Below, in pieces: positions 10,626 through 43,718 of a stretch of DNA of 64,000 nt. The notes beneath the pieces are model-generated. The model was not told where the DNA came from. It made no database searches and was given only the letters and a program-made list of their open reading frames with translations. Location: the NCBI GenBank assembly GCA_000002435.2, contig CM018791.1; one strand, given 5' to 3'. Source of the DNA: Giardia intestinalis. Taxonomy: Eukaryota. Positions within the stretch are counted from its first letter, which is position 1; the number at the start of each line of letters is the position of its first letter. A program made the translations under genes and the position numbers.

Positions 10626-11028
10626 TTTTAAAAGCTAAGTGTATATTATAGTTTGAAGATATGCTTTCTGGTAGCACGTTTTGTAAATTGATAAGAGGAG
10701 TCTTCAAGAATAATCTTACTTTTCCAAGCTATTCAATATGCACCCGTTACAAACAAAGGTATAGCTCCGTTTATGGCTACTTTAATAGGAGAAACTAGCC
10801 TGCATGCTCTTTTACTTTAAAGGATGGCCCTTCCGCAAGATTAGCTCCATCCTTTTTCCAGTCAGATCCTTCAGGTAAATCAAAGTGAGGCATTATTAGC
10901 AGGGCAAACTTCTGTCCTAAGAGCAGAACATGTATAGAGCAAATTTTACGAGCTGAAGAAAGCGCCATGCAACACAGTTTAGTTGCTCCAAATCGTAGAA
11001 ATAAAAATCCAAAGCAAAATTCATATCT
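10626..11028. promoter_or_regulatory. Divergent intergenic region of about 400 bp between the transketolase (-) and coiled-coil (+) gene starts. It presumably holds both promoters.
   Basis: Two ATGs face away from each other. The AT-rich stretch 'aaataaaaatccaaagcaaaattcatatctATG' lies immediately upstream of 11029. Giardia promoters are short AT-rich elements within about 50 bp of the ATG (established knowledge). Confidence 0.3.
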
Positions 11029-12687
11029 ATGGAAGCGCCCCCCAACATTAATCTGAAGGTGGATCATACATCCCACCTCAACATCCACGGAGACAATGAG
11101 CCTAAGACTCAGAAGGATCTCCTCGAGCTCTCTCGTAAGTACAGGCACATGGAAGGTGACCGCAAGATGTACGCAGACGAAGCACAGCTGACGATACGTC
11201 GCCAGAACCAAGTAATGGAGCGTCTTACTAATGAAAATAACCAGCTTCGTGAACGGGTAGCCGAGGCGACCCACAAGGCGGGCGGCAACGCATCTCGGTT
11301 TTCAGAGGCTGAAGCGCTGATTGCGAAAAAGGCTCTTTTCGAGCAAAAGATAGCTCAAGAGCGTGAAGCAATCCGTGCTGTTGAGCGAAAGCTCAAGGCC
11401 GCCGACAAGGCGATGGATGATCTGCGGCGTGAGCGTGCCACGGCAGAGGCAGCCAGACCGACTGCGGCAACGGTGGAGAAACACGTCGGCCTCTTGGAAA
11501 ATCGATTGCAGCAGGCGTCATGCAAATATAACGACATACTGGCAGAAAACCGCAAGCTACGCTCTGAAATCGAGAATCTCCGATCAGAGCATCTTGCATT
11601 CGAGAAGATACATTCTGGTTTGGTCAAGGATTCAGAGGCAAAGATAGCGGAGATGACAAAGCTCATGGATCGCGCCCGCGAGGAGTTCAAACATCGCGAA
11701 GACACGCAGGAGCAGCTTATTAGGCTTAGAGAGCAATCTCAAAAAGAAGCGAGCGCATTCCAAGAGGAGTGGACAGAGCTGGGGCGCATTTTGGAGCGAG
11801 ACGCTAGGCGACGTCAGCTCCAACAACAACAATTAGAACAGCAAAGACAGCACCTTCAGGACCAAGCAGCCACTAAGATGAATGCGACTGCGAAGTCTGA
11901 GGGAGAGTTGGAGCAAGCCGACAAGGTCAGTGACGAAGCAGCTTATGAGCGGGCCTTCCGTGCTATTATTGAAAGCGGGTGCTATCCTGCTGTCAATCAG
12001 GCAATTCGCGAAGCACATGGAGACAGCATACCGAACTACTCTTCAATGCGCCTTACAGAGGGAATGATTAACCACATTGTTGACTCGTTCATAGTTGGAG
12101 AAGAGCATAACTTTTCTCTCTTTACACTCACTAACGAGTTGAGAGCCGAATTGGAGACCAAAGAAGAAGAGCTCTACAAGCTTAAGTCAGATTTAGTATC
12201 TGCGAAACGTCGCAAGCAGGAGGCAGATTCAAACATGAAATCCGAGATTCAAGCTTTGGAATCACAGCTCGCAGCCATCAAAGCAACCGGCGAGGGCTTC
12301 GAGCAACAGTTTGACAGGCTCAATGCAAGCATGAATACAATCTATGAGCTAATAGAGTATATCTTCCGAGAGTCTGGATGTGAGAACATAGGAGGAATCA
12401 GTGCTATCAGTGATAACATTGAGAGTAACTTTGTCACCAGTGAAAATGTGATCATTCACCTCAGCGCCGTCGAATCTGCAGTTGATGGCTTGATCGGGAA
12501 GCTTCTTATGCTCCTAAATACAAACGCTATATCCCGAGAGTCTGCGCGCGACATCCTACACATGGAGCTAAGCAACGACGTCGTCTCTACCCTTGCACCT
12601 GCCGCTGCCGCGCTGCTGAAAACGGTTAACAAACCTCTAGACGACCATATAAGCTTTGGAGATTTTGCTGGTGACGAGCTTATTTAA
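11029..12687 (+). CDS. Coiled-coil protein. It is possibly an outer-dynein-arm docking-complex family member (CCDC63/CCDC114/DC2-like).
   Basis: 552 aa, heptad-rich and Q/E/R-rich throughout. The N-terminal block 'LSRKYRHMEGDRKMYADEAQLTIRRQNQVMERL' resembles the conserved ODA-DC N-terminal signature. The family assignment is from memory only. Confidence 0.6.
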   Translation: MEAPPNINLKVDHTSHLNIHGDNEPKTQKDLLELSRKYRHMEGDRKMYADEAQLTIRRQNQVMERLTNENNQLRERVAEATHKAGGNASRFSEAEALIAKKALFEQKIAQEREAIRAVERKLKAADKAMDDLRRERATAEAARPTAATVEKHVGLLENRLQQASCKYNDILAENRKLRSEIENLRSEHLAFEKIHSGLVKDSEAKIAEMTKLMDRAREEFKHREDTQEQLIRLREQSQKEASAFQEEWTELGRILERDARRRQLQQQQLEQQRQHLQDQAATKMNATAKSEGELEQADKVSDEAAYERAFRAIIESGCYPAVNQAIREAHGDSIPNYSSMRLTEGMINHIVDSFIVGEEHNFSLFTLTNELRAELETKEEELYKLKSDLVSAKRRKQEADSNMKSEIQALESQLAAIKATGEGFEQQFDRLNASMNTIYELIEYIFRESGCENIGGISAISDNIESNFVTSENVIIHLSAVESAVDGLIGKLLMLLNTNAISRESARDILHMELSNDVVSTLAPAAAALLKTVNKPLDDHISFGDFAGDELI

Positions 12688-12782
12688 GCTTTCTATCTGT
12701 CAGGTAAATTTCCCTGCGACAATTTCCCTGTCATGCGTTGTGTTGGTTTTTAAAAAATCTGGGGCGCCAAACTTGTTGAACC

Positions 12783-19569: not shown

Positions 19570-21762
19570 TCACAGTGATTTTTCATAGAGCATGCGGTAA
19601 GAAGATCCGCACATCGCATAGTTTATTTCATGCAGCGTGCAGAGGCCACTCCCTTCTAGGATCTCGTGACATATGGCTGTGGGAGTGGGGATGGGTCGAG
19701 GGTCTACAATGAATGCAGATCCCTCCATAACCGAGCAGCTTTTGTAATGTCTCGCGTTCTCTCTTGTATCTTGTATCAACGAATCAAACCTCTCCAGAAA
19801 CATCTTTGCCTTTTCCTTGTTTGCCTCTTCAGAAGATTCTATAACGTCTAAATCTGCGTTCTTCTCTAGGTAGGGCGGGGGTGGCGGCAATGCGTGACCA
19901 TTTATTGCCTTTAGATAGCCTATTTCCTTGAGCAATTTTTCGTTTTCCCGCTCAAGAATTGCAAGCTTCTCTTCAAGAAATGATCTTTCTATCACAAAAT
20001 CGGCTGGCAAAATCTGCTTATCTAAATTGAGTACATCCTCCAACTGTCTGCAACGGTCCTGCAACTTATTCGAGCGTTCTAGCTCAGTATTTAAGCGCTC
20101 CTTCACACTACTGAGTGCCTGTACACTTTCCTTGTGCATCATCACGAGTGCTTTGATGTCTCTTCGAGCCGCCAAGATCTCCCGCTGGAGGGCTGACCTT
20201 TCCGACTCTGCACTCATTATGGCATTCTGTAGAGTTAGTATCCGCTTATCTCGTAAAAGAGCGTCATTTCGACTAGCAAGCTCCTGCTTTATGGCGGCTA
20301 GTTCTGCAATCGTGGCATTGTGTGCGTCAATTCTGGACTCATAAGCTATTTTAAGCTGCTTAATTGTTTCATGGGCATCTGCCAGCTGTTGTGTGAATTT
20401 CTCGCGCTCTGCTATGAGCGTCTCCTCGCACTTATTCTTCTCGTGTAGCAGTTTGTTGACGTGGACAGGGTGAACAGCCGGCTCGTGCTTGTTCGCTACA
20501 AGAAAGGACGTATATATCTGCTCTAAGCGTTGTAGTTCTTCACGTGCGGTTGAAAACCTCTTCTCCAACATTGCAAGGGCCGAAGTGGCATGCTCCAGAT
20601 CCATACTAAGCTTCTCAATATGAGCGTTTTTCATGTCCACCTGTGCTGCTAGATTTTGCAGTTGCATATCTTTTCTAGTATCTTCTGGTGCCATAGATTC
20701 CACCAATAAAGTAGAATTGGAAACGCCTATAAGCTTGTGCTTGTTGACATTATTAATCATTTGCTGAACAACTCCGTTTCTTTCTTCGGGCAAGTACTCG
20801 GGCTCCTCAGTCTGAGAGCTGGTTTCAAGAATACGCAGAGACGATATGCTTCCACTAAGGTTCTTCTGCCGAATGATATTCTCACATAGACTACACATCT
20901 TAGGGTCAGTCATAGGATCCCCGGAAAATGCATCATCAGCTACTATTGCTACCCCCTTTATAGAGATGTCCACTAACGTTGCTAATTCTATTCGCGTGGT
21001 AGACTCCACAGCTAGCATCCAGTGGGCAAGGTGCAGAAGCGAGTTACTGTATGGAAAGCGGCGCAAGGTAATTATGTCCTGCCTTATAGGTTGTGCCTTG
21101 TCAGCATAGAGAGGCTCTCCCGAAAGAAACTCGCAAAGAACACACCCAAGTGACCAGATATCAAAGCTTGGAGCAATGTCTACTGTAGAATAGAATTCCT
21201 TCGGTTGATAAAGACGAGAGGTCTGGACTGATGAATGCAACGCACTTAGAGTTGTCACACTGGTAAGAAAGTGCGGGCATATGCCGACATCCGTAAAGAC
21301 ATATATCCCTTCTGGAGTCGATATAATATTCTGAGGCTTTATATTGCCGTGACAAATGCCCTTCTTGGTGTGTTGCTGAAGGTACAGGAGTGCACTGGAT
21401 AAGTCACGTATAAGCTTCCAGGCCTTAACCTCAAGCGCTCTTGGATGCTCATTCTTGTTTGTCGGAATGATGAGATCCAGGGAGTTTCCTTCTATGTAAT
21501 CTCGAGCATAGTAAAGATCAGCGCCGAAGAGATCATTCGGTTCAAAGCACCTATCAAGCCTATATGTTGGTAGTGAGCTATGAGATACGGTACTAAGGCT
21601 ATCTAATATCCCACGGAGAATACCCAATCGCTTTTGATAAAACCATTCAGAAAGCCCTAAATTCTTAATAAAGTAAAGCTTTACGACTACACGATTGCCA
21701 CTGTCTTCGGCAAAAAATGTCGTACATGATGGAGAACTGCTCACTGGCCGCAGTGCCTTCAT
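19570..21762 (-). CDS. NEK-like protein kinase with a long C-terminal coiled coil. It is likely a pseudokinase (HGN instead of HRD).
   Basis: Kinase subdomains 'CHGNIKPQNII', 'DIWSLGCVLCEFLSGEPLY' and 'FTDVGI' are present. About 350 aa of heptad coiled coil follow. The initiator 'gaaaaaATG' was verified on the minus strand. Confidence 0.8.
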   Translation of the reverse strand: MKALRPVSSSPSCTTFFAEDSGNRVVVKLYFIKNLGLSEWFYQKRLGILRGILDSLSTVSHSSLPTYRLDRCFEPNDLFGADLYYARDYIEGNSLDLIIPTNKNEHPRALEVKAWKLIRDLSSALLYLQQHTKKGICHGNIKPQNIISTPEGIYVFTDVGICPHFLTSVTTLSALHSSVQTSRLYQPKEFYSTVDIAPSFDIWSLGCVLCEFLSGEPLYADKAQPIRQDIITLRRFPYSNSLLHLAHWMLAVESTTRIELATLVDISIKGVAIVADDAFSGDPMTDPKMCSLCENIIRQKNLSGSISSLRILETSSQTEEPEYLPEERNGVVQQMINNVNKHKLIGVSNSTLLVESMAPEDTRKDMQLQNLAAQVDMKNAHIEKLSMDLEHATSALAMLEKRFSTAREELQRLEQIYTSFLVANKHEPAVHPVHVNKLLHEKNKCEETLIAEREKFTQQLADAHETIKQLKIAYESRIDAHNATIAELAAIKQELASRNDALLRDKRILTLQNAIMSAESERSALQREILAARRDIKALVMMHKESVQALSSVKERLNTELERSNKLQDRCRQLEDVLNLDKQILPADFVIERSFLEEKLAILERENEKLLKEIGYLKAINGHALPPPPPYLEKNADLDVIESSEEANKEKAKMFLERFDSLIQDTRENARHYKSCSVMEGSAFIVDPRPIPTPTAICHEILEGSGLCTLHEINYAMCGSSYRMLYEKSL

Positions 21763-22024
21763 TTTTTCGGGCAGGATTTATTATTGACCAGAGGCTTTGT
21801 GGCACTCCTCTAGAGAAGATCTCAGTGTCAGCTTTAGGCCACTCCCATGGACATCGTCTGTTCCTGATCTCAGGGGCCCGTCAGGCTTCTCACGCTACCT
21901 CGCGGCTCCTCCGGGCGCGCGGCCCTGCTACTTCAAAGAGACTCGACTCCCAAGCCCCGCCTGGCCACCGAGCGGCCTGCAGGGTCCTTGCGCCCCCTGG
22001 GCCCGTGATGTGGCACATGGATGC

Positions 22025-22039
22025 GTTTACTACCTGAGT
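22025..22039 (-). promoter_or_regulatory. Conserved VSP 3' processing/polyadenylation motif (ACTYAGRTAGTRAAY), minus strand.
   Basis: The plus strand reads 'gtttactacctgagt', which is the reverse complement of ACTCAGGTAGTAAAC. It sits 2 nt after the VSP stop. AGTAAAY is the Giardia polyA signal (established knowledge). Confidence 0.6.
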
Positions 22040-22041
22040 AT

Positions 22042-24063
22042 CTACGCTTTGCCTCTGCAGATGAACCACCAGCAGAGGAACCCGACGAGCCCCCCGACTA
22101 CGACAATCACAGCAACAGAGATGCCGGCGATGGCCCCAGTGGAGAGGCCGCTCTTGTTCGTGCTTCCACCGGTGTTGTCGCTAGTGCCATCGCCCATCTC
22201 AAGGCACATGAACGCATCGGTGGATGACACCGTGCACTGCCTGCACCCAGCGAGCCCCTCAGAGCACGGATTACACTTTGTCCCAGCACTCTGCGGTTTG
22301 TAATATCCAGTGCTGCATGTAGCACAGGCGTTAGCGTCGTTAGCAGCCGTGCATGTCTCGCAGCTAAGATGGCACCTTTTATTGGAACAATCGCCATTAT
22401 CAGCCGTTAGACCACTGGCACATTTTGTACATTTTCCTCCCTGCACTGTAGTACACACTTGTTTACCAGGCTGTCTATTTGTTTGATAGCAACCGCCATC
22501 TTTGAGGAAGTAGTTATTTTCACATTGAGTGCATGCTCCATTACTCACCGTAGTGCAAAATCGTGTTCGCGTATTGGCCGCACAGTTGCCATCCAGTGGC
22601 GCTTGCTGAGCGTTCTTGCACTTTGAGCAGTATGCAGTTCCTCCTATCTGAGCCCCACACTCTGCGCATCCATCGTTTGTAGAACTCACACTGCACTGGT
22701 TCATGCACGTGCCCCCATTGGCAGGAGTATCAGCATCTGTATACTGAAGCATCTTCCCAGCAGGACAGGCCGTGCACTTATCAGCGCCCTCACCCTTGCA
22801 CTCTACGCACGCATCGTTGCACTTCTTGCAGGTCTTTTTGCCACTATCGTCTCCGTAGTAGCCCTTGAGGGTCGTGCAGTCAGATACGCATTGACTGGTT
22901 GGGGTGAGGTAGTACTCAGACAGACACTTTGTACAGACCTCCTTATCAGCGCCTTCACCGGTGCACTCCAAACAGTGCTCTGTGTTACAGTTACTGATTG
23001 GTCGGCATTCAGTCGATTCAGTATTAGGCTGGAGTCCTTCGTTGCACTCGCACACTTGGCTATCCTGTCCGGTGGCCTTGGGGGTAGAGTTAGCAGGGCA
23101 ACTAGCAACGCACGACTTTTTGTTGAGGCCAAAGATGGTCTTATCAGAATCGGGGCACTCTTTGCATACTGCTCCGTCGCCGTTCTTTTCACAAGTCTTA
23201 CAATCTTTTGCCCCGCCCGATGTGCAGGTAGTGCAGGTCTTCGCTGCTTCATCTATGTAGTGTGTTGCTGGGCAATCGCCCTGATTAACGCACGTGCCTG
23301 TCTCACTGTCATCCTCCTTCTTCAGGTAGGGCGTGGCTTCAGTACACGAGGTACACTGCGTCTCTGTATTCTCGCATGTCTTACAGCTGGAAGCACATTT
23401 GCTGCACTTCTTTCCATTACGTGAGTCCACAAAATACCCATTATTGCAATCGGCCTCCTCGACACACGACGTTACGCCGTCGACTGTCTTGACAATCTTA
23501 CCGCCTCCACATGCATTACATGTAGCGGCTTTTGGTGCATCAGTCGCCTGCTCTGGCTTCTCGCAGGTGGTGCACCCATCTACGCCTGTGTACTTCTTAC
23601 CATCGCCAAGCGTCACTCCTTCGACGTCTCCACACCAGACAACCGACTGGTCTGTTTTGGTGGCCCCTGGAACAACAAAGTAGTTCTTTGTGGTAGCAGC
23701 CTCAGCGCATATCCCGTTTGTGGTAACCGTTTTACACATTTGATTGCCAGGTGTAGCGTCTTTTGAGTAACACCCGCCTTTGTACAAGAAATGATTTGCC
23801 GCATCGCACTGCTCGCACCTAACACTCGAAGCGTCAACGTTATCACCTGCCTTCTTTTTGCACCCGGCAGTTGTGACGGCGTTGTCATTTTGTGGTTTAC
23901 ATATTCCGTCAATAGGAACATTTCCTTGGTCTTTACACTCTGTGCATATCTCAGTGCTGCCAGCCATTTCACACATATTTTCCTTACATTTGCCAACCTG
24001 AGTATCTGCAGAACACGTCGCTGCGAGTGTACTCAGTGCAAAACAAAATGCCACCAACAACAT
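22042..24063 (-). CDS. vsp: Variant-specific surface protein (VSP), 673 aa, copy 1.
   Basis: Signal peptide 'MLLVAFCFALSTLAATCSA', dozens of CXXC motifs, GGCY motifs ('YKGGCY', 'KDGGCY'), a C-terminal TM helix, and the invariant tail 'CRGKA-stop'. Confidence 0.95.
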   Translation of the reverse strand: MLLVAFCFALSTLAATCSADTQVGKCKENMCEMAGSTEICTECKDQGNVPIDGICKPQNDNAVTTAGCKKKAGDNVDASSVRCEQCDAANHFLYKGGCYSKDATPGNQMCKTVTTNGICAEAATTKNYFVVPGATKTDQSVVWCGDVEGVTLGDGKKYTGVDGCTTCEKPEQATDAPKAATCNACGGGKIVKTVDGVTSCVEEADCNNGYFVDSRNGKKCSKCASSCKTCENTETQCTSCTEATPYLKKEDDSETGTCVNQGDCPATHYIDEAAKTCTTCTSGGAKDCKTCEKNGDGAVCKECPDSDKTIFGLNKKSCVASCPANSTPKATGQDSQVCECNEGLQPNTESTECRPISNCNTEHCLECTGEGADKEVCTKCLSEYYLTPTSQCVSDCTTLKGYYGDDSGKKTCKKCNDACVECKGEGADKCTACPAGKMLQYTDADTPANGGTCMNQCSVSSTNDGCAECGAQIGGTAYCSKCKNAQQAPLDGNCAANTRTRFCTTVSNGACTQCENNYFLKDGGCYQTNRQPGKQVCTTVQGGKCTKCASGLTADNGDCSNKRCHLSCETCTAANDANACATCSTGYYKPQSAGTKCNPCSEGLAGCRQCTVSSTDAFMCLEMGDGTSDNTGGSTNKSGLSTGAIAGISVAVIVVVGGLVGFLCWWFICRGKA

Positions 24064-24649
24064 TGTATTGTGGATTGGATTGCAATAAGATTCTGTTGGT
24101 GGTTGGACTGCTCCTGATAAGAAGACTCCATGCTTGCTAGTTCTTAATCAGCTTGAGACTCTTAGTCATTCATCTCAGAGGACAAAACCGGCATGTTCAG
24201 TAATGAGTGCACTGGCTCTCAAGCCGTACCACGTGTGCCGCTGGGGCCTACCTACATGTATGGTCCAGAAGTCTCACGGGCAAGCCTCGCTCAGTCCCTG
24301 GCCAGTCCGGAGGAGAGGGCTGGCCGCGGGTCGTAACGATAACCACAGCGGTGATAGGGAAGAGCTCCCTCCGTTTGTGGATCTGGGGTCTGTGCGTTCC
24401 TCGGCTGTTCCGCGGGCGTACGTGTCGATCTTTTCGAGGTTTTCTTACGGGCTCACTGTTCTACTGAGGGTGCCTCTCCTTGGTCTCTCTTCATAGTAGG
24501 TGAAGCTCTGGTCGTTGTCTTTTTAGATGCCCCCATCTGTCACAACTACTGCCGTCAGGGCTCTCTCCACCGGCTGAGATTCCACTCGATTGTGTGTCCG
24601 GTCTTGCGCCCCTTCTCGATCGTTGTCGTCGGGTCCCGGGGATGGACTC

Positions 24650-26450
24650 ATTCGGTTGTCAGAAGTAGGATGACAGGAGACGGTCGCTCTGGGTGACCAG
24701 GCTTTCGGCCCGGCCGCGTCTGATCAGCTTCGTCGGGTGCTCGTTCGCCTCTGCAGCCATGTGGGCGATGGCGAAGGCAGCCCGGACAGAGGTCCACGTG
24801 GAGCTCCTCGAGGTGCCCCTTGGACTTGGGGTGGAGGGATCCGTCTGTCTCGTCCCTGTACTTCTTGACCTTCTCGTTGTAGTAGGCATCCATCTGGCGG
24901 GGCTGGATGACACCCACGTCCACTGCCTTGCACTTGTCGACGAGCCAGATGTCGGGCTTCTGGTTCTGGTCGCTGAGGTGGCTGTGGGTCTCGACTTCCA
25001 GCTCTGCGTTGAACTTCCCTGAGACGCGGAGGTACAGGCACGCGACGATCATGTCGTGCCTTGTGGCAGCCCGGGCAGGTGCCTCTTGTCTGCGCCATGA
25101 TCGAGCCGCCCTTCTCCTTCAGGGCCCTTTCCTCCTCGGTCAGCACGCCGCACATCTGCAGACAGTACGCCGCCGCTCTATCCGGAAGCTGGTGTGTGCG
25201 CGTGAGGAGGCGGTTGGAGTAGGTCCCCTTCCCCTGCAGTGCCTGACCGCCCACCGACAGCTCCACCGGGTCCCTGGTCCCCTTGTTGACGTCCGGGGAG
25301 GCCCATGCCCTCCGCAGCTCGTCGTGGCAGAGCTCCGGCATGAGCAGGCCCGGGCCGCCCTTCTCCTTCGGGTACGCCAGGAAGTCGACCAGGCGATCGC
25401 AGCTTCTGTTGGTTAGTGCCTGAAGCCTTGTGCGACGCGTCTGTTGAGCTCCTCGTAGTCCGCCTTGTTCGATGTCATCTCGACCAGGGGGGCGTAGTTC
25501 ACCATCGGGACCACACAGAGTGACAGCAGGATGAGCTTCTGGTGGATGGTTATGGGGGCATTCTCAATCTTCCTCAGGGCAGTCTCGGCACCTGCGATGG
25601 CCTTCGGCGCGAGACTGGTAGGGATGGGGGACACCGGGTGGTTGAGGAAGGTCACCTCCTCGCCCGCCACGGTGGACTTGCATTTGTCGCTCCTGATCGT
25701 CAGGCCCATAGCCTGCTGTACTATTGCGCCTGCTGGGTACCCCTCGTCGTGGAGCGCCACGATGTCGTCCGCATAGGCAAGGAAGGTGATGCCCCTCCTT
25801 GAGGCGTCTCAGGAGGCGCTCGGTGGCCATGCAGAAGAGGAACATGCTGAGCGGGTCGCCCTGGGAGACGCCGCAGACCTCGCACTTCACGTCCCGGCTG
25901 TGCCTCGGCTCGAGGAAGTTCCTGATGTAGTCGATCAGGACCTTCGGGATGCCCGCCTCGTTCAGGGCTCTGACGACCTCTGCCCTCGGGAGCGAGTTGA
26001 GGGCGTTCTTTGTGTCGAGGGAGACGGCGTGCACCCCCGGCCTGCTGATGAGCTCGTGGGCCCTCCTCACGCCTACCGCGTATGCGTTCTGCATGAAGGC
26101 GATCTGTTCGCATGAGGGGTAGTTGGCATGCCTGATCAGTCGCTTCAGCAGGATGCGGTGGAAGATGCTTGTCACCGTCTCGCCATCGCGATCGGGGGTA
26201 TCCATCGGACTCCTTCAGGGTGGGTGGTCAGCTCGTTGTACGCCTGCGTGAGGTACTTCACGAAGCTGTCGTTCTGCTTCATCGCCTGAGCTGGACCGCC
26301 CGAGACCAGACAGGCCTTGTTGAGGGTTCCAAACAGGGCCTTCCTCATTTCTTCTTCGGTTGCCGGCTCCAGCCCCGTCGAGCTCATCGATGGAGGGCAG
26401 TCAAAGCCAACGTAGCCTTCGGGGAGGACGCACGGGTGTAGCGCGCTGAG
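24650..26450 (-). mobile_element. Degenerate non-LTR retrotransposon remnant (Giardia GilM/GilD-like). The RT and restriction-like endonuclease domains are split over at least 4 frames. It may extend 5' to about 27060.
   Basis: Minus-strand RT motifs 'FHRILLKRL', 'SQGDPLS' (about 25845) and 'FLAYADDIV' (about 25770, in a +1 shifted frame). Downstream are C..C/H..C clusters and the RLE motif 'KPDIWLVDKCKAVDVGV' (about 24959). The region is GC-rich relative to its flanks. Confidence 0.6.
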
Positions 26451-27364
26451 GGCGGTCGGCCTTCTTCGGCTTGTCTACCATGGGTGTGCCATCAAGGGCG
26501 CGGAGAGCCTTAGCAACTGCCCCGAAGCTCAGCGCGTTGTTCACCCTGTTTGCTATCCGGCGCCTCGCCCTCTCTGGATCTGGGTCCGACTTGCCTGGGA
26601 CTGCTCCGGGTGTTGCTTGAGTCTTCTAGCAGTTTCCTACCAAGGCGTCTAGACCCCTGATAGCGGGGAGCGCGACCCCAGTCCCTGCCTGCTCGATGCT
26701 CGCGATCATGCGCGCACCCTGGTGGATGAGCATGGCAGCTGTCTGATTCGGTATGTGGGACGGAATGATCAGTTTGTCGTCACCTAGTACTCTGTGTCTG
26801 TCATCATTTGCTTCTCTCAGGTGCTCGGTTAGTTGTTTAGCCTCTCGCACGGCAGGCCACAGAGCCAGCGTGTGTGTCCTGCTGAGAGAGTAAATGTCTT
26901 CGGAGTGGTCTCCCAAGTAGAGACTCACGGCTTGCTGTTTGGGGTCTCGGAGGTACGATCTTGCGTTCATAATGTGGATCGGGTCCTCGCGGGCTCTCCT
27001 TCGCCTCAGGTCCAGCTGTGTGCACGCCCGCGGAACAGCCAAGACACAAGACCCCAGATCCACAAACGGAGGGAGCTCCTCCTATCACCACTGTGGCTAT
27101 CACTGCGACCTTCGCCTTCGAGCTGGCCAGGGACTGAGCGAGGCTTGCCCGTGAGACTTCTGGACCATACATGTAGGTAGGCCCCAGCGGCACACGTGGT
27201 ACGGCTTGAGAGCCAGTGCACTCATTACTGAACATGCCGGTTTTGTCCTCTGAGATGAATGACTAAGAGTCTCAAGCTGATTAAGAACTAGCAAGCATGG
27301 AGTCTTCTTATCAGGAGCAGTCCAACCACCAACAGAATCTTATTGCAATCCAATCCACAATACA

Positions 27365-29386
27365 ATGTTGTTGGTGGCATTTTGTTTTGCACTGAGTACA
27401 CTCGCAGCGACGTGTTCTGCAGATACTCAGGTTGGCAAATGTAAGGAAAATATGTGTGAAATGGCTGGCAGCACTGAGATATGCACAGAGTGTAAAGACC
27501 AAGGAAATGTTCCTATTGACGGAATATGTAAACCACAAAATGACAACGCCGTCACAACTGCCGGGTGCAAAAAGAAGGCAGGTGATAACGTTGACGCTTC
27601 GAGTGTTAGGTGCGAGCAGTGCGATGCGGCAAATCATTTCTTGTACAAAGGCGGGTGTTACTCAAAAGACGCTACACCTGGCAATCAAATGTGTAAAACG
27701 GTTACCACAAACGGGATATGCGCTGAGGCTGCTACCACAAAGAACTACTTTGTTGTTCCAGGGGCCACCAAAACAGACCAGTCGGTTGTCTGGTGTGGAG
27801 ACGTCGAAGGAGTGACGCTTGGCGATGGTAAGAAGTACACAGGCGTAGATGGGTGCACCACCTGCGAGAAGCCAGAGCAGGCGACTGATGCACCAAAAGC
27901 CGCTACATGTAATGCATGTGGAGGCGGTAAGATTGTCAAGACAGTCGACGGCGTAACGTCGTGTGTCGAGGAGGCCGATTGCAATAATGGGTATTTTGTG
28001 GACTCACGTAATGGAAAGAAGTGCAGCAAATGTGCTTCCAGCTGTAAGACATGCGAGAATACAGAGACGCAGTGTACCTCGTGTACTGAAGCCACGCCCT
28101 ACCTGAAGAAGGAGGATGACAGTGAGACAGGCACGTGCGTTAATCAGGGCGATTGCCCAGCAACACACTACATAGATGAAGCAGCGAAGACCTGCACTAC
28201 CTGCACATCGGGCGGGGCAAAAGATTGTAAGACTTGTGAAAAGAACGGCGACGGAGCAGTATGCAAAGAGTGCCCCGATTCTGATAAGACCATCTTTGGC
28301 CTCAACAAAAAGTCGTGCGTTGCTAGTTGCCCTGCTAACTCTACCCCCAAGGCCACCGGACAGGATAGCCAAGTGTGCGAGTGCAACGAAGGACTCCAGC
28401 CTAATACTGAATCGACTGAATGCCGACCAATCAGTAACTGTAACACAGAGCACTGTTTGGAGTGCACCGGTGAAGGCGCTGATAAGGAGGTCTGTACAAA
28501 GTGTCTGTCTGAGTACTACCTCACCCCAACCAGTCAATGCGTATCTGACTGCACGACCCTCAAGGGCTACTACGGAGACGATAGTGGCAAAAAGACCTGC
28601 AAGAAGTGCAACGATGCGTGCGTAGAGTGCAAGGGTGAGGGCGCTGATAAGTGCACGGCCTGTCCTGCTGGGAAGATGCTTCAGTATACAGATGCTGATA
28701 CTCCTGCCAATGGGGGCACGTGCATGAACCAGTGCAGTGTGAGTTCTACAAACGATGGATGCGCAGAGTGTGGGGCTCAGATAGGAGGAACTGCATACTG
28801 CTCAAAGTGCAAGAACGCTCAGCAAGCGCCACTGGATGGCAACTGTGCGGCCAATACGCGAACACGATTTTGCACTACGGTGAGTAATGGAGCATGCACT
28901 CAATGTGAAAATAACTACTTCCTCAAAGATGGCGGTTGCTATCAAACAAATAGACAGCCTGGTAAACAAGTGTGTACTACAGTGCAGGGAGGAAAATGTA
29001 CAAAATGTGCCAGTGGTCTAACGGCTGATAATGGCGATTGTTCCAATAAAAGGTGCCATCTTAGCTGCGAGACATGCACGGCTGCTAACGACGCTAACGC
29101 CTGTGCTACATGCAGCACTGGATATTACAAACCGCAGAGTGCTGGGACAAAGTGTAATCCGTGCTCTGAGGGGCTCGCTGGGTGCAGGCAGTGCACGGTG
29201 TCATCCACCGATGCGTTCATGTGCCTTGAGATGGGCGATGGCACTAGCGACAACACCGGTGGAAGCACGAACAAGAGCGGCCTCTCCACTGGGGCCATCG
29301 CCGGCATCTCTGTTGCTGTGATTGTCGTAGTCGGGGGGCTCGTCGGGTTCCTCTGCTGGTGGTTCATCTGCAGAGGCAAAGCGTAG
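27365..29386 (+). CDS. vsp: Variant-specific surface protein (VSP), 673 aa, copy 2. It is 100% identical to copy 1.
   Basis: Protein identical to 22042..24063. CRGKA tail, signal peptide and CXXC/GGCY motifs are all present. Confidence 0.95.
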   Translation: MLLVAFCFALSTLAATCSADTQVGKCKENMCEMAGSTEICTECKDQGNVPIDGICKPQNDNAVTTAGCKKKAGDNVDASSVRCEQCDAANHFLYKGGCYSKDATPGNQMCKTVTTNGICAEAATTKNYFVVPGATKTDQSVVWCGDVEGVTLGDGKKYTGVDGCTTCEKPEQATDAPKAATCNACGGGKIVKTVDGVTSCVEEADCNNGYFVDSRNGKKCSKCASSCKTCENTETQCTSCTEATPYLKKEDDSETGTCVNQGDCPATHYIDEAAKTCTTCTSGGAKDCKTCEKNGDGAVCKECPDSDKTIFGLNKKSCVASCPANSTPKATGQDSQVCECNEGLQPNTESTECRPISNCNTEHCLECTGEGADKEVCTKCLSEYYLTPTSQCVSDCTTLKGYYGDDSGKKTCKKCNDACVECKGEGADKCTACPAGKMLQYTDADTPANGGTCMNQCSVSSTNDGCAECGAQIGGTAYCSKCKNAQQAPLDGNCAANTRTRFCTTVSNGACTQCENNYFLKDGGCYQTNRQPGKQVCTTVQGGKCTKCASGLTADNGDCSNKRCHLSCETCTAANDANACATCSTGYYKPQSAGTKCNPCSEGLAGCRQCTVSSTDAFMCLEMGDGTSDNTGGSTNKSGLSTGAIAGISVAVIVVVGGLVGFLCWWFICRGKA

Positions 29387-29388
29387 AT

Positions 29389-29403
29389 ACTCAGGTAGTA
29401 AAC
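29389..29403 (+). promoter_or_regulatory. Conserved VSP 3' processing/polyadenylation motif ACTCAGGTAGTAAAC.
   Basis: The sequence 'gcgTAGatACTCAGGTAGTAAACgcatcc' lies immediately after the CRGKA stop codon. Confidence 0.6.
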
Positions 29404-30098
29404 GCATCCATGTGCCACATCACGGGCCCAGGGGGCGCAAGGACCCTGCAGGCCGCTCGGTGGCCAGGCGGGGCTTGGGAGTCGAGTCTCTTTGAAGTAG
29501 CAGGGCCGCGCGCCCGGAGGAGCCGCGGACACGTCTCAGGCAGGGCGACGGCCTCCGGTGCCCAAGACCGGTTACACACGGCGGGGTGGACAGAAATTAT
29601 AGTTTCATATGGCTCCTTTTGTCTAGGGAAGCAACTCGTAGTTATTTGGCTTCTATTTCAGAATATCTTTACTGAGCGTCAATTCTTGTGATACTACATA
29701 CTGAAGAGTTATAAAAAGTACTCAGAATATATTGTCAAGAGAATACGAAGCGCCTATACAATAGAGTGTACGCATATTATGCACGTATTCAGGCTCACTT
29801 TGCTTAGTTTAGTTGTATTTAGCTATAACTTTTCAGAGAACTTTACACTGGATTGCAAAGGCGCTCAGTGGTAAGTGACATTAGGATGAACGCAGATCTG
29901 GGTTATTTCTATTCATGGCATGGCTTGCACCTAACTAACCAGTAGAACTAATAGCTAATATCCATGAAATACTAGATACGTAGTTTACTGCACAACCTCA
30001 ATTAGAGCAAGTGGTAAGTACACTGCGATACGCTTCTTCAGCTGTGTACTCTTGAGTAGATATTTATAAGTAAAGCATCTGAGTATTAAGCATAGTGC

Positions 30099-33065
30099 TT
30101 ATTCTTTCACAAGGCCTCGCAGTATCTCTAATTGATCTCTTCGCAAAAACGCCGTAGCAAAGATAACGCCCTGAGTCCGTGGAATCTTGGTTTTAACGGC
30201 TCGCGGAGCAACTTGGAGAGAATATACTACAGCAATAAGACAAAATGCCACCAGCAGCGGATTATCCTTAAAATGTGAAGTGCAGTAGGTTAGAAGAGTA
30301 TCTACTGACAAACCGGCTATCATGAACAAGCGAAGAATCTCCGACCCGACCCCCTCTAAAGCAGTATTAAATGTTCTGTAGACAAGAATCTCACTCAAAG
30401 GGACGATGTCAGGTGACATCGCTGCCGTACGTAGAAGATAAATAAACAGTCTATCCACAGGAGACACAAACACAGATGGGTTTTCCAAGGCTAGCGCATA
30501 AGCAGTTTTAATCATCCTGAAGTCTCCTGCGCTGAGACCAATTGTTTCGCCCCCAGACTGCGAGGATGCAACTAGCCTACATAGCTCGTTCCTAGAGGCA
30601 GGGCCATCAAAAGCCCCCTGGCCTAAATTAACTATTGTCGCTGCACGCTCTGAGTACCAAGCTGCGTAGGAATATATCTTATTCCACTGGTAGCAAAGCA
30701 AAATTAGTTCAGGCGACTCTGCAGAGGCCTTCAAAATAAGGTAAAGCGATGTTCTAGAAAGGTTGTCCCTAAGAAATGGGTAATTTGACTTTGACTTGAC
30801 TTGAAGAGCTACATACAGCTGAAGTATATAAATAGAATCCGGATCTGGTTTGTTCGCAGGTCCATAGCTAGCCAGTACGAAGTCCTCAGTAAGCTGGTGG
30901 ACTTCTTTCTTAGTCGGACTAGAGAGGACAAAAGTTTTAGCGTCGACCAAAGAACGAATAACATTACGTGAGCAAGCTTCGAGTGGACTCGTTGATGCAT
31001 TTGGCAGAGTAGAGTCTTCTTGCATTTTGTTTTCCTCAGAACTATATGATGACAAACAAGAAGAGGCTAGATGCACTCCGGGATGCAGCACCGCTTGTAT
31101 CGCATCGTACATGCTATAGAGGTGAGATGAGCTCTTGTCTGTGAGCGTGCCGTTAACTCTGTCTAAAAGCTCATTGAGGGCTTGCTTAAAGGATGCGACT
31201 TGCAAACACACGCCTCCATAATTGAAATAGGTAAGAATGGAAAGGGTTAGATACTGAAAATTATGCTTAGCTATTAACGATGCAGAAGTGTGTTGCTTCC
31301 ACGTCTGCAGGAGCAAATCAACAAGACGACCAAATGCTCCATGGTCAAGGGGGAAAATACAATCAAGCACAGCATCATCAAGACTGCTATAGAGCGAACC
31401 CTGCTTCCCCAGAAACCCAATCTTTGTTGTGAAAATAAGAGATGAGTCAGAAAGCCCTGTGAGATCAACAACAATTTCCTTCAGCTTTTCAAAATCGTAC
31501 GTTTTGATATCATATTTGAACATCACTAGATATAAGTTGACTGTCGCTAAGCGCAACTCATTGATAGTGAGAATCCTATCTGGAAGCGGTTTTATCAAAG
31601 CGTATATGCATTCAAAAATTTCGCCTATTGCTTTCACATGAAGAGACTGAGAAAACGCATCGAAAAGAGCAACAAACCTTTCAAGGCAACGCGCAAAGAC
31701 AGAATCTAGCCCCTCGTGGCGCGACTCAGTGTAGTTCTTGGTCCACTTCATGTGCGTAGCAAGTGTACGGAAGAATGTGACTAGCACACTATTATAGCAG
31801 TCGACAAATGCCTCTGGAACATTATCTGGGAAGCTCTTTGCTATGCGTACAAGGCCGATAAGCAGTTTTTCAAAGCCAGCCAGCATGGTCATGTAGCTGT
31901 TTTCCGGGGGCTTTGCCCGAGCACTGTGTCCGTGCAGTTGGGGTTTTGGAGAGTTTAGCCCGGAAAATATCCGATCGCTGACACTCGCAATGATCAGAAG
32001 AAGTTCGAGGGAGAAAAATATTGATCGCTCGGTCTGTTTCGAAGAGACGACATCTGGATAAAGCTGGGGGTGGGAAACTAGCCTATGTGCAAGTAAAACT
32101 AAAGAAGAAAGAGTACCCATTAAAATTTCAATAGGGTCACCGTTGGAATTACTTAGAAAATGGTCCCAAAAGGAAACATAGTCTGCCCAACTGATGACTG
32201 TCTTAGTCCCGGTGATGTGGAGTATTGGATTGTGGCCTTCCTTGACATTGGTTGGAGCTGCTTTCCCATTTTTCCCTTGCTCAAGGGGTTGCAAAGTCAG
32301 ATAATTGAGGCTATATGTAGGCATGTAAGAACTATTAGCATACGAAGCACTTATACCAACGAGCTCTGGAACCGACAGTTCCAGCACTCTATAGATAACG
32401 AGTTCCAGCATCTGCCAGAATAGCGCTGACATGGTGATAAATAGTGGGTCTGCACGCTTCTTTCCATGCGCAGATGCTTCAGAGCCAACAGGCCTGTGAC
32501 TATTCAAACCAGTTGCAGCTGTGGATGCGGATCGGCGATCAATATTGGCGAATTGAAAGAGAAGACTGGTCTCTATAGAGTTGGCTAAAATGACATTCTG
32601 ACCCAGAACACGGATGGTCCTTGTAAGTAAGTACGCCGAATCATGTCCCAAGGCGCAGTGCAATAGGAGATTTGTGACAGCCAGGAAAGTCATATCTTGT
32701 TGATTTCCTGTTATTGCAGAAAGAAAAGTCAAGAGAGTATTCCTGTGCTCTGGTCTCCAAAGGGGAAGAAGGGCGAGAATGGGAAGGTCCAGGTCTATGT
32801 GCATGTGGTGACGCAGAAGATAGTCAATAATTACCTGCCTGCAAGAACTATCAGTTGTTAACAGGAGAATGCGTAGAAGTTCACGTGTAACTCTGTTGTC
32901 TGTGAGCATGGATGTGTCCTCAACCCTTTCTACAATACCGGATGGATCGACTGTTTCGCCACTGTTTAACGATTGCACAGTCTTCCTCAAAAAATCAATT
33001 GCTTCTTTCACCTTCAAGCAACCGCTATTGAGTCGTAGAAGGCCCGATTTGTGCACATCAAACAT
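30099..33065 (-). CDS. Large hypothetical protein, about 988 aa from the first ATG. The ORF track starts at a TTG (33095). It may be joined to the 103-aa ORF upstream (see findings).
   Basis: 3-kb open frame with no recognised domain. The first codon of the tracked ORF is TTG, and the first ATG is codon 11. Confidence 0.55.
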   Translation of the reverse strand: MFDVHKSGLLRLNSGCLKVKEAIDFLRKTVQSLNSGETVDPSGIVERVEDTSMLTDNRVTRELLRILLLTTDSSCRQVIIDYLLRHHMHIDLDLPILALLPLWRPEHRNTLLTFLSAITGNQQDMTFLAVTNLLLHCALGHDSAYLLTRTIRVLGQNVILANSIETSLLFQFANIDRRSASTAATGLNSHRPVGSEASAHGKKRADPLFITMSALFWQMLELVIYRVLELSVPELVGISASYANSSYMPTYSLNYLTLQPLEQGKNGKAAPTNVKEGHNPILHITGTKTVISWADYVSFWDHFLSNSNGDPIEILMGTLSSLVLLAHRLVSHPQLYPDVVSSKQTERSIFFSLELLLIIASVSDRIFSGLNSPKPQLHGHSARAKPPENSYMTMLAGFEKLLIGLVRIAKSFPDNVPEAFVDCYNSVLVTFFRTLATHMKWTKNYTESRHEGLDSVFARCLERFVALFDAFSQSLHVKAIGEIFECIYALIKPLPDRILTINELRLATVNLYLVMFKYDIKTYDFEKLKEIVVDLTGLSDSSLIFTTKIGFLGKQGSLYSSLDDAVLDCIFPLDHGAFGRLVDLLLQTWKQHTSASLIAKHNFQYLTLSILTYFNYGGVCLQVASFKQALNELLDRVNGTLTDKSSSHLYSMYDAIQAVLHPGVHLASSCLSSYSSEENKMQEDSTLPNASTSPLEACSRNVIRSLVDAKTFVLSSPTKKEVHQLTEDFVLASYGPANKPDPDSIYILQLYVALQVKSKSNYPFLRDNLSRTSLYLILKASAESPELILLCYQWNKIYSYAAWYSERAATIVNLGQGAFDGPASRNELCRLVASSQSGGETIGLSAGDFRMIKTAYALALENPSVFVSPVDRLFIYLLRTAAMSPDIVPLSEILVYRTFNTALEGVGSEILRLFMIAGLSVDTLLTYCTSHFKDNPLLVAFCLIAVVYSLQVAPRAVKTKIPRTQGVIFATAFLRRDQLEILRGLVKE

Positions 33066-33116
33066 CGAGCCAATTAATTGAAAAACACTCTGCAATTCAG
33101 TGTAAAATGGCCTTTT

Positions 33117-42700: not shown

Positions 42701-43718
42701 CCCGGAGTCCATTTCCCGGTCAACGAGGTGCGTCGATGGGCCCTGTCCTGGCAGTGTTCCCCGGTCAACGAGGTGCGTCGATGGGCCAGCTGGCCGGAGT
42801 CTTTTCCCGGTCAACGAGGTGCGTCGATGGGCCAACCTGTCCTGGCATGCTGTTTCCCCGGTCAACGAGGTGCGTCGATGGGCCAACCTGTCCTGGCATG
42901 CTGTTTCCCCGGTCAACGAGGTATTCGATGGGCCTGCTGGCCGGAGTCCATTTCCCCGGTCAACGAGGATGCGTCGATGGGCCATAGCTGGCCCGGAGTC
43001 CTTTCCCCGGTCAACGAGGTGCGTCGATGGGCCTAGCTGGCCCGGAGTCCTTTCCCCGGTCAACGAGGTGCGTCGATGGGCCAACCTGTCCTGGCATGCT
43101 GTTTCCCCGGTCAACGAGGTGCGTCGATGGGCCAACCTGTCCTGGCATGCTGTTTCCCCGGTCAACGAGGTGCGTCGATGGGCCAACCTGTCCTGGCATG
43201 CTGTTTCCCCGGTCAACGAGGTATGCTCGATGGGCCTAGTGGCCCGGAGTCCATTTCCCCGGTCAACGAGGTGCGTCGATGGGCCAACCTGTCCTGGCAT
43301 GCTGTTTCCCCGGTCAACGAGGTTGCTCGATGGGCCAACCTGTCCTGGCATGCTGTTTCCCCGGTCAACGAGGTGCGTCGATGGGCCAACCTGTCCTGGC
43401 ATGCTGTTCCCGGTCAACGAGGTGCGTCGATGGGCCAACCTGTCCTGGCATGCTGTTTCCCCGGTCAACGAGGCTATGTCGATGGGCCAACCTGTCCTGG
43501 CATGCTGTTTCCCCGGTCAACGAGGTGCGTCGATGGGCCAACCTGTCCTGGCATGCTGTTTCCCCGGTCAACGAGGTCGTCGATGGGCCAACCTGTCCTG
43601 GCATGCTGTTTCCCCGTCAACGAGGTTGTCGATGGGCCTAGCTGGCCCGGAGTCCCATTTCCCGGTCAACGAGGTTATGTCGATGGCCTAGCTGGCCGGA
43701 GTCCCATTTCCGGTCAAC
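39707..43718. repeat. 51-bp tandem repeat array, proximal part (about 79 units) up to the assembly gap.
   Basis: Period of 51 bp verified ('catgctg' at 39721 and again at 39772). Unit A is 'ccaacctgtcctggcatgctgtttccccggtcaacgaggtgcgtcgatggg'. Unit B is 'cctagctggcccggagtcccatttccccggtcaacgaggtatgtcgatggg'. There are many 1-nt homopolymer-length variants. Confidence 0.95.

What the first reader, a model, noticed from the sequence alone, without database searches (positions are those of the whole stretch)
21901..29528. Perfect head-to-head inverted duplication of a complete VSP gene around a 2.8-kb retroelement-bearing spacer
Two 100%-identical 673-aa VSP genes lie in mirror orientation: 22042..24063 on the minus strand and 27365..29386 on the plus strand. 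Their 5' ends face each other. Identity also covers 141 bp of 3' flank and about 235 bp of 5' flank on each side, giving about 2.4 kb per arm. This is a 7.6-kb quasi-palindrome. Perfect arm identity implies very recent duplication or ongoing gene conversion. Such a structure is prone to hairpin/cruciform formation and to fold-back rearrangement. Read-through transcription from one copy across the spacer into the other would give RNA complementary to the second copy. That matters because VSP expression switching has been linked to an RNAi-like mechanism (established knowledge; the link made here is inference). A GC-rich RT/RLE retroelement relic sits at the symmetry centre, which suggests the element was involved in generating or stabilising the palindrome.
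Basis: partly seen in the sequence, partly recalled or inferred. Interest (0 to 1): 0.72.

Follow-up and report, generated by a model that had tools for sequence, protein, structure and literature searches.

The report
Known identical inverted VSP gene pair
This is a real mirror-image duplication of a Giardia surface-antigen (VSP) gene around a dead retroelement, but the locus (vsp168.1/168.2, GL50803_119707/119706) is already published; what is added here is evidence that the duplication grew out of the retroelement's own inverted ends and is kept identical by copying between the arms.

Summary
Two identical 673-aa VSP genes (22042-24063 minus, 27365-29386 plus) sit in perfect 2405-nt inverted arms (21901-24305 / 27123-29527) around a 2817-nt GC-rich spacer that holds a frameshifted RT/endonuclease relic.

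It is not new. The locus matches Giardia WB vsp168.1/168.2 (GL50803_119707/119706, chromosome 3):
- Adam 2010 lists it as a head-to-head identical pair.
- Xu 2020 (PacBio) lists 673 aa, 3301 bp and a pseudo-RT between the genes.
- A 2022 preprint describes it again.

So an assembly artefact is very unlikely.

What I add:
- The relic is one copy of a dispersed, roughly 3.1-kb dead element with its own terminal inverted repeats of about 170 nt.
- In this window the switch from 100% to 87% arm identity lies inside that repeat, so the VSP arms look like an outward extension of it.
- Isolate DH (A2) has both outer junctions at the same base, while the flanks differ by 1.1-1.5%. The pair is therefore old and is homogenised by conversion or re-copying.
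- A divergent Giardia lineage has an empty site here.

It remains untested.

The parts
21901..24305 (-). Left perfect arm: 141-nt 3' flank, VSP gene, 242-nt 5' flank
   Evidence: Zero mismatches to the reverse complement of 27123-29527.
22042..24063 (-). VSP copy 1, 673 aa (one of vsp168.1/168.2 = GL50803_119707/119706)
   Evidence: Identical translation to copy 2. Pfam VSP 3.7e-77. 79 Cys, 23 CXXC, CRGKA tail, Inr CAATGTT. These match the supplement of Adam 2010.
27123..29527 (+). Right perfect arm
27365..29386 (+). VSP copy 2, 673 aa, with AGTAAAC poly(A) signal at 29397
24306..27122 (.). Spacer between the perfect arms (2817 nt, 57-64% GC)
   Evidence: It has no match elsewhere in the window.
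24450..27043 (-). Body of a dead non-LTR retroelement (RT plus restriction-like endonuclease), broken by several frameshifts and stops
   Evidence: 85-87% nucleotide identity to three other copies in isolate DH (L001-L003). All 18 protein homologues are Giardia RT/endonuclease fragments. The three-frame translation shows YADD and the later motifs in different frames.
25564..26205 (-). Longest RT fragment
   Evidence: Pfam RVT_1, 2.8e-9. A more intact family member, P0001, hits R2 retrotransposon protein structures at 1.3e-6.
24651..25118 (-). Endonuclease fragment (KPDIWLVD...DVGV...EKVKKY); the CCHC knuckle upstream is partly deleted
   Evidence: Motifs read directly. The intact CPGCHTARTLDHDMNC motif plus the same endonuclease motifs are present in P0001.
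24233..24419 (-). 3' terminal inverted repeat (TIR) of the element; it straddles the 100%/87% identity breakpoint at 24305|24306
   Evidence: Colinear local alignment of 24233-24375 to the 170-nt TIR of L003: z=24.8, 0 of 1000 shuffles. The part inside the perfect arm alone gives z=6.9. Controls are null. See also alignment A2. 24329-24419 pairs with 27024-27110 at 87%.
27024..27195 (-). 5' terminal inverted repeat of the element (mirror of 24233-24419)
19570..21762 (-). Left boundary gene (730-aa protein kinase); its ATG lies 138 nt from the arm
   Evidence: Pfam Pkinase. The gene is syntenic in DH, P15 and L008.
30099..33095 (-). Right boundary gene (998 aa, no domain), transcribed towards the right VSP copy; 571-nt AT-rich intergenic region
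   Evidence: In L008 this gene and the kinase lie 535 nt apart with no VSP between them.

Best explanation
The feature is the published head-to-head identical VSP pair vsp168.1/168.2 (GL50803_119707/119706) on chromosome 3 of Giardia intestinalis WB.

At its centre is one copy of a dispersed, dead, R2-like non-LTR retroelement. It carries RT plus a CCHC/PD-D-K endonuclease and is of the GilD / Genie-2 kind. Elsewhere this element is bounded only by its own terminal inverted repeats (TIRs) of 55-170 nt.

Proposed mechanism (inferred): a VSP gene lay next to one TIR. Intrachromosomal recombination or break-induced copying, primed within the TIR, copied that neighbour to the other side in mirror orientation. 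This extended the inverted repeat from about 170 nt to about 2.5 kb.

The pair already existed before sub-assemblages A1 and A2 split. Its present 100% identity is kept by arm-to-arm gene conversion or repeated re-copying. The tract ends inside the TIR, which leaves the innermost roughly 115 nt at about 87%.

The net effect is two co-evolving copies of one antigen gene. No regulatory role is shown.
For: Identity of the locus:
- ORF spacing is 3301/3302 bp, the 3' divergence point is 141 nt, and the protein has 673 aa, 79 Cys, 23 CXXC and Inr CAATGTT.
- These match Adam 2010, Table 5 and supplement.
- Xu 2020, Table 2, lists chr 3, 119706/119707, divergent arrows, 673 aa, 3301 bp, psi-RT.

The element is a repeat family with its own TIRs:
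- L001, L002 and L003 match window 24450-27043 at 85-87%.
- Each is flanked by inverted repeats of 119, 55 and 170 nt. These repeats are mostly 94-98% alike between copies; the degraded L002 5' arm is about 88%.

TIR homology runs into the perfect arms:
- It reaches about 24233, so the identity breakpoint lies within the TIR.
- A second case of outward growth is L009. There the inverted repeat is about 890 nt, rises from 86% identity (inner) to 99% (outer), and captures a VSP 3' end.

Age and conversion:
- DH (L004) has both arm/flank junctions at the identical base.
- DH flanks are 98.5-98.9% identical to WB. Without homogenisation, about 27-36 arm-to-arm differences would be expected; none is seen.
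- The two DH copies share a 759-nt 3' segment (2 mismatches) that is only 56-91% identical to WB in part.

Insertion status:
- A divergent Giardia contig (L008) has the two boundary genes 535 nt apart with no VSP.
Against: - The copying step itself is inferred from anatomy. No single-copy intermediate was found, so the original side is unknown.
- G. muris has identical head-to-head and tail-to-tail VSP pairs but almost no retroelements.
- In WB, 12 tail-to-tail pairs and 3 of 7 head-to-head pairs have no RT remnant. A retroelement is therefore not required for inverted VSP pairs in general.
- P15 (assemblage E) has, at the same site, a single VSP between 688-nt inverted repeats and no RT.
- DH and P15 are short-read assemblies and may be mis-joined inside repeats. 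The truncated second copy in DH (419 aa) and its missing half-relic could be artefacts.
- Assignment of the relic to GilD/Genie-2 rests on my memory of Arkhipova & Morrison 2001 and Burke et al. 2002. Neither paper nor a reference sequence could be read here.
Confidence: 0.6

Rival explanations
1. Assembly fold-back artefact: only one VSP copy exists and the second arm is a mis-join.
For: Perfect identity is what a computational duplication would give. Adam 2010 notes that such pairs terminated contigs prematurely, and the 2022 preprint says the pairs had been questioned as artefacts of the GL2.0 assembly.
Against: - The same pair with the same spacing appears in the Sanger assembly (3302 bp) and in the PacBio assembly (3301 bp).
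- The DH contig carries both flank/arm junctions, and its arms differ at 2 of 759 positions.
- An independent Logan contig (L005) breaks 41 nt into the arm, as expected at a true repeat boundary.
- The imperfect inner repeat shows two physically distinct copies.
Confidence: 0.02
2. One very recent duplication in the WB lineage, with no gene conversion; identity simply reflects youth.
For: There are zero differences in 2405 nt. Adam 2010 favoured relatively recent duplication.
Against: - DH (A2) has the same two outer junctions to the base, although single-copy flanks have accumulated 1.1-1.5% divergence.
- The inner part of the repeat is only 87% identical.
- The DH copies share a replaced 3' segment.
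Confidence: 0.1
3. The retroelement is a passenger. It inserted into, or was trapped in, the centre of a VSP palindrome that formed by an unrelated mechanism common to all Giardia VSP pairs.
For: Most WB pairs lack an RT remnant, and G. muris has such pairs with very few retroelements. P15 has inverted repeats here without RT.
Against: - Copies of the element away from VSP pairs (L001, L002, L003) carry the same terminal inverted repeats, so the repeat belongs to the element, not to a VSP palindrome.
- In WB the repeat is colinear with those TIRs across the arm boundary.
- An insertion into the centre of a palindrome would not create homologous TIRs elsewhere.
Confidence: 0.2
4. The palindrome is a functional source of hairpin or antisense RNA that feeds RNAi-like VSP silencing. 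It would need inward transcription, for example read-through from the 998-aa gene on the minus strand.
For: - The 998-aa gene is transcribed towards the right VSP copy, with 571 nt between them.
- A transcript crossing the whole locus would fold into a 2.4-kb stem.
- RNAi components have been linked to VSP control (Prucca 2008, as cited).
Against: - Both VSP copies are transcribed outward, so their own read-through cannot give antisense RNA.
- The 998-aa gene has its own AGTAAAC signal at 29989.
- The central pseudogene is described as non-transcribed.
- The papers I read that treat small RNAs do not mention inverted pairs.
- No RNA data were available.
Confidence: 0.1

Closest known systems
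vsp168.1/168.2 (GL50803_119707/119706), one of the identical inverted vsp pairs of Giardia WB (Adam et al. 2010, PMC2996952; Xu et al. 2020, PMC7000408)
   Same: Everything measurable matches: head-to-head orientation, 673 aa, 79 Cys, 23 CXXC, Inr CAATGTT, 141-nt 3' divergence point, 3301/3302 bp between the ORFs, and a pseudo-RT between them.
   Different: Adam 2010 gives 158 nt for the 5' divergence point; here identity is perfect for 242 nt. The 2022 preprint calls the pair 'tail to tail', but the sequence and Xu's table show head to head.
GilD (Arkhipova & Morrison 2001) / Genie 2 (Burke et al. 2002): the dead non-LTR family of Giardia
   Same: The relic is Giardia-specific, multi-copy and degenerate. 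It has RT followed by CCHC and a restriction-like endonuclease, a unit of about 3 kb, and terminal inverted repeats up to 170 nt. From memory, Genie 2 was described as having inverted repeats up to 172 bp.
   Different: No reference sequence or paper could be read here, so the name is an assignment by description. In this copy the inverted repeat has grown to include a whole VSP gene.
Large palindromes kept identical by arm-to-arm gene conversion (for example human Y-chromosome ampliconic palindromes) and inverted-repeat expansion in plastid genomes
   Same: It works alike: near-perfect arms persist despite age, there is a unique spacer, the identity boundary is sharp, and the repeat grows outward by copying flanking genes.
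   Different: The organism and scale differ. Here the seed is a retroelement's terminal inverted repeat and the cargo is an antigen gene. This comparison rests on general knowledge, not on a test.
Identical VSP pairs of Giardia muris (Xu et al. 2020, PMC7641422)
   Same: Seven pairs of identical VSP genes, head-to-head or tail-to-tail, with intervening pseudogenes.
   Different: G. muris has very few retroelements; its spacers hold NEK, ankyrin or zinc-finger remnants rather than RT.

Membership tests
Giardia variant-specific surface protein (VSP) | Match to the VSP family profile | tested here: met
   Pfam PF03302, E=3.7e-77, 260 bits against a cut-off of 31.4.
Giardia variant-specific surface protein (VSP) | Cysteine-rich ectodomain with many CXXC motifs | tested here: met
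   79 Cys in 673 aa (11.7%) and 23 CXXC.
Giardia variant-specific surface protein (VSP) | C-terminal transmembrane segment followed by CRGKA | tested here: met
   The protein ends ...GAIAGISVAVIVVVGGLVGFLCWWFICRGKA*.
Giardia variant-specific surface protein (VSP) | VSP initiator element around the ATG, and AGTRAAY poly(A) signal after the stop | tested here: met
   CAATGTT at the start codon, and AGTAAAC 11 nt after the stop.
Giardia variant-specific surface protein (VSP) | N-terminal signal peptide | not tested
   A hydrophobic N-terminus (MLLVAFCFALSTLAATCSA) is visible, but no predictor was run.
Identical inverted vsp pairs (Adam 2010) | Two identical ORFs in inverted orientation, 2-4 kb apart | tested here: met
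   Identical 673-aa products with 3301 nt between the ORFs.
Identical inverted vsp pairs (Adam 2010) | Flanks identical up to an abrupt divergence point 139-729 nt from the coding region | tested here: met
   141 nt on the 3' side and 242 nt on the 5' side.
Identical inverted vsp pairs (Adam 2010) | Correspondence to a catalogued pair | tested here: met
   All tabulated values of vsp168.1/168.2 match except the 5' divergence point. A direct sequence comparison with GL50803_119706 was not possible.
GilD / Genie 2 dead non-LTR retrotransposon | Reverse transcriptase domain of the non-LTR (R2-like) type | tested here: met
   RVT_1 2.8e-9. The YADD motif is present. Family member P0001 hits R2 protein structures at 1.3e-6.
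GilD / Genie 2 dead non-LTR retrotransposon | CCHC motif and restriction-like endonuclease downstream of RT | tested here: met
   Motif-level only. KPDIWLVD...DVGV...EKVKKY is in the relic, and the full CCHC plus the same motifs are in P0001. No Pfam hit for this part.
GilD / Genie 2 dead non-LTR retrotransposon | All copies degenerate (frameshifts, stops, deletions) | tested here: met
   The WB copy needs at least 4 frame changes. The DH copies are split into several short ORFs.
GilD / Genie 2 dead non-LTR retrotransposon | Terminal inverted repeats (up to about 172 bp, from memory of Burke et al. 2002) | tested here: met
   55-170 nt, homologous between copies. The WB copy retains them.
GilD / Genie 2 dead non-LTR retrotransposon | Sequence match to the published GilD/Genie 2 consensus | not testable with these tools
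   The reference sequences and both papers are unavailable.
Hairpin-RNA / endo-siRNA locus | A transcript spanning both arms, or antisense transcripts and Dicer-sized small RNAs from the arms | not testable with these tools
   No expression data. The geometry argues against read-through from the VSP genes themselves. The preprint calls the central pseudogene non-transcribed.

The most novel reading that the evidence does not exclude
Dead GilD/Genie-2 elements may act as general seeds for antigen-gene duplication in Giardia. Their terminal inverted repeats would be extended outward by break-induced copying, mirror-duplicating whichever VSP lies next door (head-to-head here, tail-inward in DH contig L009). 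The resulting palindromes would then be kept identical for long periods by arm-to-arm conversion. This would give a defined, testable mechanism for part of the expansion and concerted evolution of the VSP repertoire.
Probability: 0.4. Interest if true: 0.5.

Novelty: already known. Interest (0 to 1): 0.25.

Why it matters
VSP genes drive antigenic variation in a major human gut parasite, and how the repertoire grows and stays intact is still unclear. The locus itself adds nothing new, because it has been catalogued three times.

The small added value is mechanistic:
- The identity breakpoint sits inside the retroelement's own inverted repeat.
- The outer junctions are shared with an A2 isolate.
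- An empty site exists in a divergent lineage.

Together these turn 'recent duplication near a retroelement relic' into a specific hypothesis: repeat-seeded mirror copying followed by conversion. It can be checked on existing long-read genomes.

Tried and rejected
- An exact-sequence lookup of the VSP in the contig index found nothing. The WB genome seems absent from that index, so other isolates were reached through the RT relic and the 998-aa neighbour instead.
- An Rfam scan of the whole window found nothing.
- I suspected the other GC-rich blocks (39.7-43.7 kb and 53.1-55.1 kb) were further retroelement copies. blastn shows no similarity to the spacer; they are a 51-bp tandem array.
- Arkhipova & Morrison 2001 could not be opened by DOI or PMC id. 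Text searches for 'GilD' and 'Genie 2' gave no description of the element's ends.
- Strict blastn failed to show that the perfect arms contain TIR sequence. A softer local alignment with shuffles and controls did show it.
- My first estimate of WB-DH flank divergence (about 4%, from the whole blast alignments) was wrong, because those alignments included the divergent arm and relic. Flanks alone are 98.5-98.9% identical.
- I looked for published small-RNA or gene-conversion statements about inverted pairs and found none specific to them.
Full report

Yes. The repeat finder reports a single inverted pair in 20-32 kb: 21901-24319 and 27109-29527, with 2789 nt between the arms. A base-by-base check shows zero mismatches over 21901-24305 versus 27123-29527, which is 2405 nt. 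The innermost 14 nt of the reported arms carry 5 mismatches. The spacer between the perfect arms is therefore 24306-27122, 2817 nt.

The two ORFs, 22042-24063 (minus) and 27365-29386 (plus), give the same 673-aa product. Identity extends 141 nt beyond each stop and 242 nt upstream of each ATG. The spacer is 57-64% GC against about 45% in the flanks. A match of this length cannot arise by chance.

It pairs 24329-24419 with 27024-27110 at 87%.

**2. What the parts are**

The protein is a textbook VSP:
- Pfam VSP scores E=3.7e-77.
- It has 79 Cys and 23 CXXC motifs.
- It ends with a transmembrane segment and CRGKA.
- CAATGTT surrounds the ATG, and AGTAAAC lies just after the stop.

The spacer encodes, on the minus strand, a broken reverse transcriptase. 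RVT_1 scores 2.8e-9 for 25564-26205, and YADD is visible in another frame. Downstream lies a restriction-like endonuclease remnant (KPDIWLVD...DVGV...EKVKKY).

A reconstructed 483-aa translation finds 18 homologues. All are Giardia RT or RT/endonuclease fragments at 41-87% identity. The most intact one, P0001, has a full CCHC knuckle plus the same endonuclease motifs. Its best solved-structure matches are R2 retrotransposon proteins.

**3. It is a published locus**

- Adam et al. 2010 (PMC2996952) catalogued 14 identical inverted vsp pairs in isolate WB. Their head-to-head pair 168 has a 3' divergence point of 141 nt and 3302 bp between the ORFs.
- Their supplement lists 168.1/168.2 as GL50803_119707/119706, HHIP, chromosome 3, Inr CAATGTT, 673 aa, 79 Cys, 23 CXXC. 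Every value matches this window except the 5' divergence point, which is 158 nt there and 242 nt here.
- Xu et al. 2020 (PMC7000408, PacBio) list 'chr 3, 119706, 119707, <- ->, 673 aa, 3301 bp, psi-RT'. They state that 4 of 7 outward-pointing pairs have an RT remnant between them.
- A 2022 preprint (10.1101/2022.03.07.483299) describes this same 3,301-nt region as holding a non-transcribed pseudogene that matches non-LTR LINE relics.

**4. What the centre really is**

Contigs of isolate DH (A2, GCA_000498715.1) that encode relatives of the RT show that window 24450-27043 is one copy of a dispersed unit. It is 85-87% identical to L001, L002 and L003.

Each of those copies is bounded by inverted repeats of 119, 55 and 170 nt, with 2.8-3.0 kb between the arms. 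These repeats are homologous between copies: mostly 94-98%, and about 88% for the degraded L002 5' arm. They therefore belong to the element.

This fits my recollection that Genie 2 (= GilD, the 'dead' family) has inverted repeats up to 172 bp. I could not read either primary paper, so that recollection is unverified.

In the window, the imperfect inner repeat is the inner part of this terminal inverted repeat (TIR). Homology continues colinearly into the perfect arms, to about 24233:
- The whole alignment gives z=24.8, with 0 of 1000 shuffles reaching the score.
- The part inside the perfect arm alone gives z=6.9.
- Two controls are null (see also alignments A1 and A2).

So the switch from 87% to 100% identity (24305|24306 and 27122|27123) lies inside the element's own TIR.

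**5. Age and maintenance**

L004 is the syntenic DH locus. It carries, in mirror order, the same neighbours: the 1382-aa gene, the 730-aa kinase, the 998-aa protein, PP2C and the ankyrin protein. Both arm/flank junctions are at exactly the same base as in WB. The pair therefore predates the A1/A2 split.

Single-copy flanks are 98.9% and 98.5% identical between the isolates. Arms left to drift for that time should differ at roughly 27-36 of 2405 positions (inference from those figures). They differ at none.

In DH the two copies are identical over only 759 nt, with 2 mismatches. That shared segment is in part just 56-91% identical to WB. By contrast, the 5' 1.5 kb of the full DH copy is 97-100% identical to WB. 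A replaced segment present in both arms of one genome is what arm-to-arm conversion predicts.

Caveat: DH is a short-read assembly. Its second copy is truncated (419 aa), and window 25641-28435 has no counterpart there. This could be a real rearrangement or a mis-join.

**6. Other states of the site**

- P15 (assemblage E, L006) has, between the same two genes, a single and quite different VSP. It lies within 688-nt inverted repeats and has no RT.
- A Logan contig from a divergent Giardia (L008) has the 998-aa orthologue at 64% aa identity. There the kinase and the 998-aa gene lie 535 nt apart with no VSP. This is an empty site. The lineage is not identified.
- Contigs L005 and L007 stop at or just before the arm.
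- In DH contig L009 the same element sits at the centre of an inverted repeat of about 890 nt. Identity rises outward from 86% to 99%, and the repeat takes in the 3' end of a VSP pointing inward. This is a second example of the TIR having grown outward over a VSP.

**7. Mechanism**

*Shown:*
- The element has its own TIRs.
- In WB the identity breakpoint lies within the TIR.
- The outer junctions are ancient.
- The arms are nevertheless identical.

*Inferred:*
- A VSP lying beside the element was mirror-copied by recombination or break-induced synthesis primed in the TIR.
- Later conversion tracts, ending in the TIR, keep the arms identical.

*Against generality:*
- Most WB pairs have no RT remnant.
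- G. muris has identical inverted VSP pairs with hardly any retroelements.

The element is therefore one possible seed, not the cause of inverted VSP pairs as a class.

**8. The functional idea**

Head-to-head genes are transcribed away from each other. Read-through from either VSP copy runs into the kinase gene or the 998-aa gene, never across the spacer.

Antisense or hairpin RNA would need inward transcription. One possible source is the 998-aa gene, which points at the right-hand copy from 571 nt away. That gene has its own poly(A)-like signal at 29989.

The preprint calls the central pseudogene non-transcribed. The small-RNA papers I could read do not mention inverted pairs.

**9. Verdict**

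The added analysis gives a sharper hypothesis for origin and maintenance that can be tested. It does not change the category. Interest is low to moderate.

Noticed in passing
window 39707-43675 and 53066-55106, flanking the N run 43719-53065: A 51-bp tandem repeat array (about 80 and 40 copies, 81-90% matches, 63% GC) lies on both sides of a 9347-N assembly gap. If the gap holds the same repeat, the array is about 15.4 kb. The many long ORFs listed there in several frames are by-products of the repeat, and it shows no similarity to the retroelement spacer.
   Followed up: partly
L004 9878-11049 versus window 24450-25640 and L003: The RT relic at the syntenic DH locus is only 87.9% identical to the WB relic, although the flanks are 98.5-98.9% identical. 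It is 94-95.5% identical to another DH copy (L003). This suggests ectopic exchange between dispersed relic copies within a genome.
   Followed up: partly
L006 9886-13132 (P15, assemblage E): At the same intergenic site, P15 has one 387-aa VSP (10911-12074) between 688-nt, 99-100% inverted repeats (9929-10616 / 12051-12736). The repeats start in the last 24 nt of the VSP. There is no RT relic. This is either a different state of the site or a short-read collapse.
   Followed up: partly
L008 9755-10288 (Logan ERR3333382): A divergent Giardia lineage (998-aa orthologue 64% identical) has an empty site. The 998-aa gene and the kinase gene are separated by 535 nt of AT-rich DNA, with no VSP, no relic and no inverted repeat.
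   Followed up: partly
L009 1-4773 (DH contig AHGT01000170.1): The same dead element (882-4056) lies at the centre of an inverted repeat of about 890 nt. Identity climbs outward (86, 95, 97, 99%) and the repeat reaches the contig end. A VSP 3' end (2-238) points towards the element, which is a tail-inward arrangement not reported with an RT remnant in WB.
   Followed up: partly
window 28624-29324 versus L004 12680-13400: The WB and DH versions of this VSP are 97-100% identical over the 5' 1.5 kb. Identity drops to 56-91% over about 700 nt of the 3' ectodomain region, then returns to 94-96%. This is a mosaic pattern that suggests segmental replacement from another VSP.
   Followed up: partly
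window 24064-24305 / 27123-27364, compared with the literature: There are small inconsistencies in the published descriptions. Adam 2010 gives 158 nt for the 5' divergence point of pair 168, whereas identity here is perfect for 242 nt. The 2022 preprint calls 119706/119707 'tail to tail', whereas the sequence and Xu 2020 show head to head.
   Followed up: no
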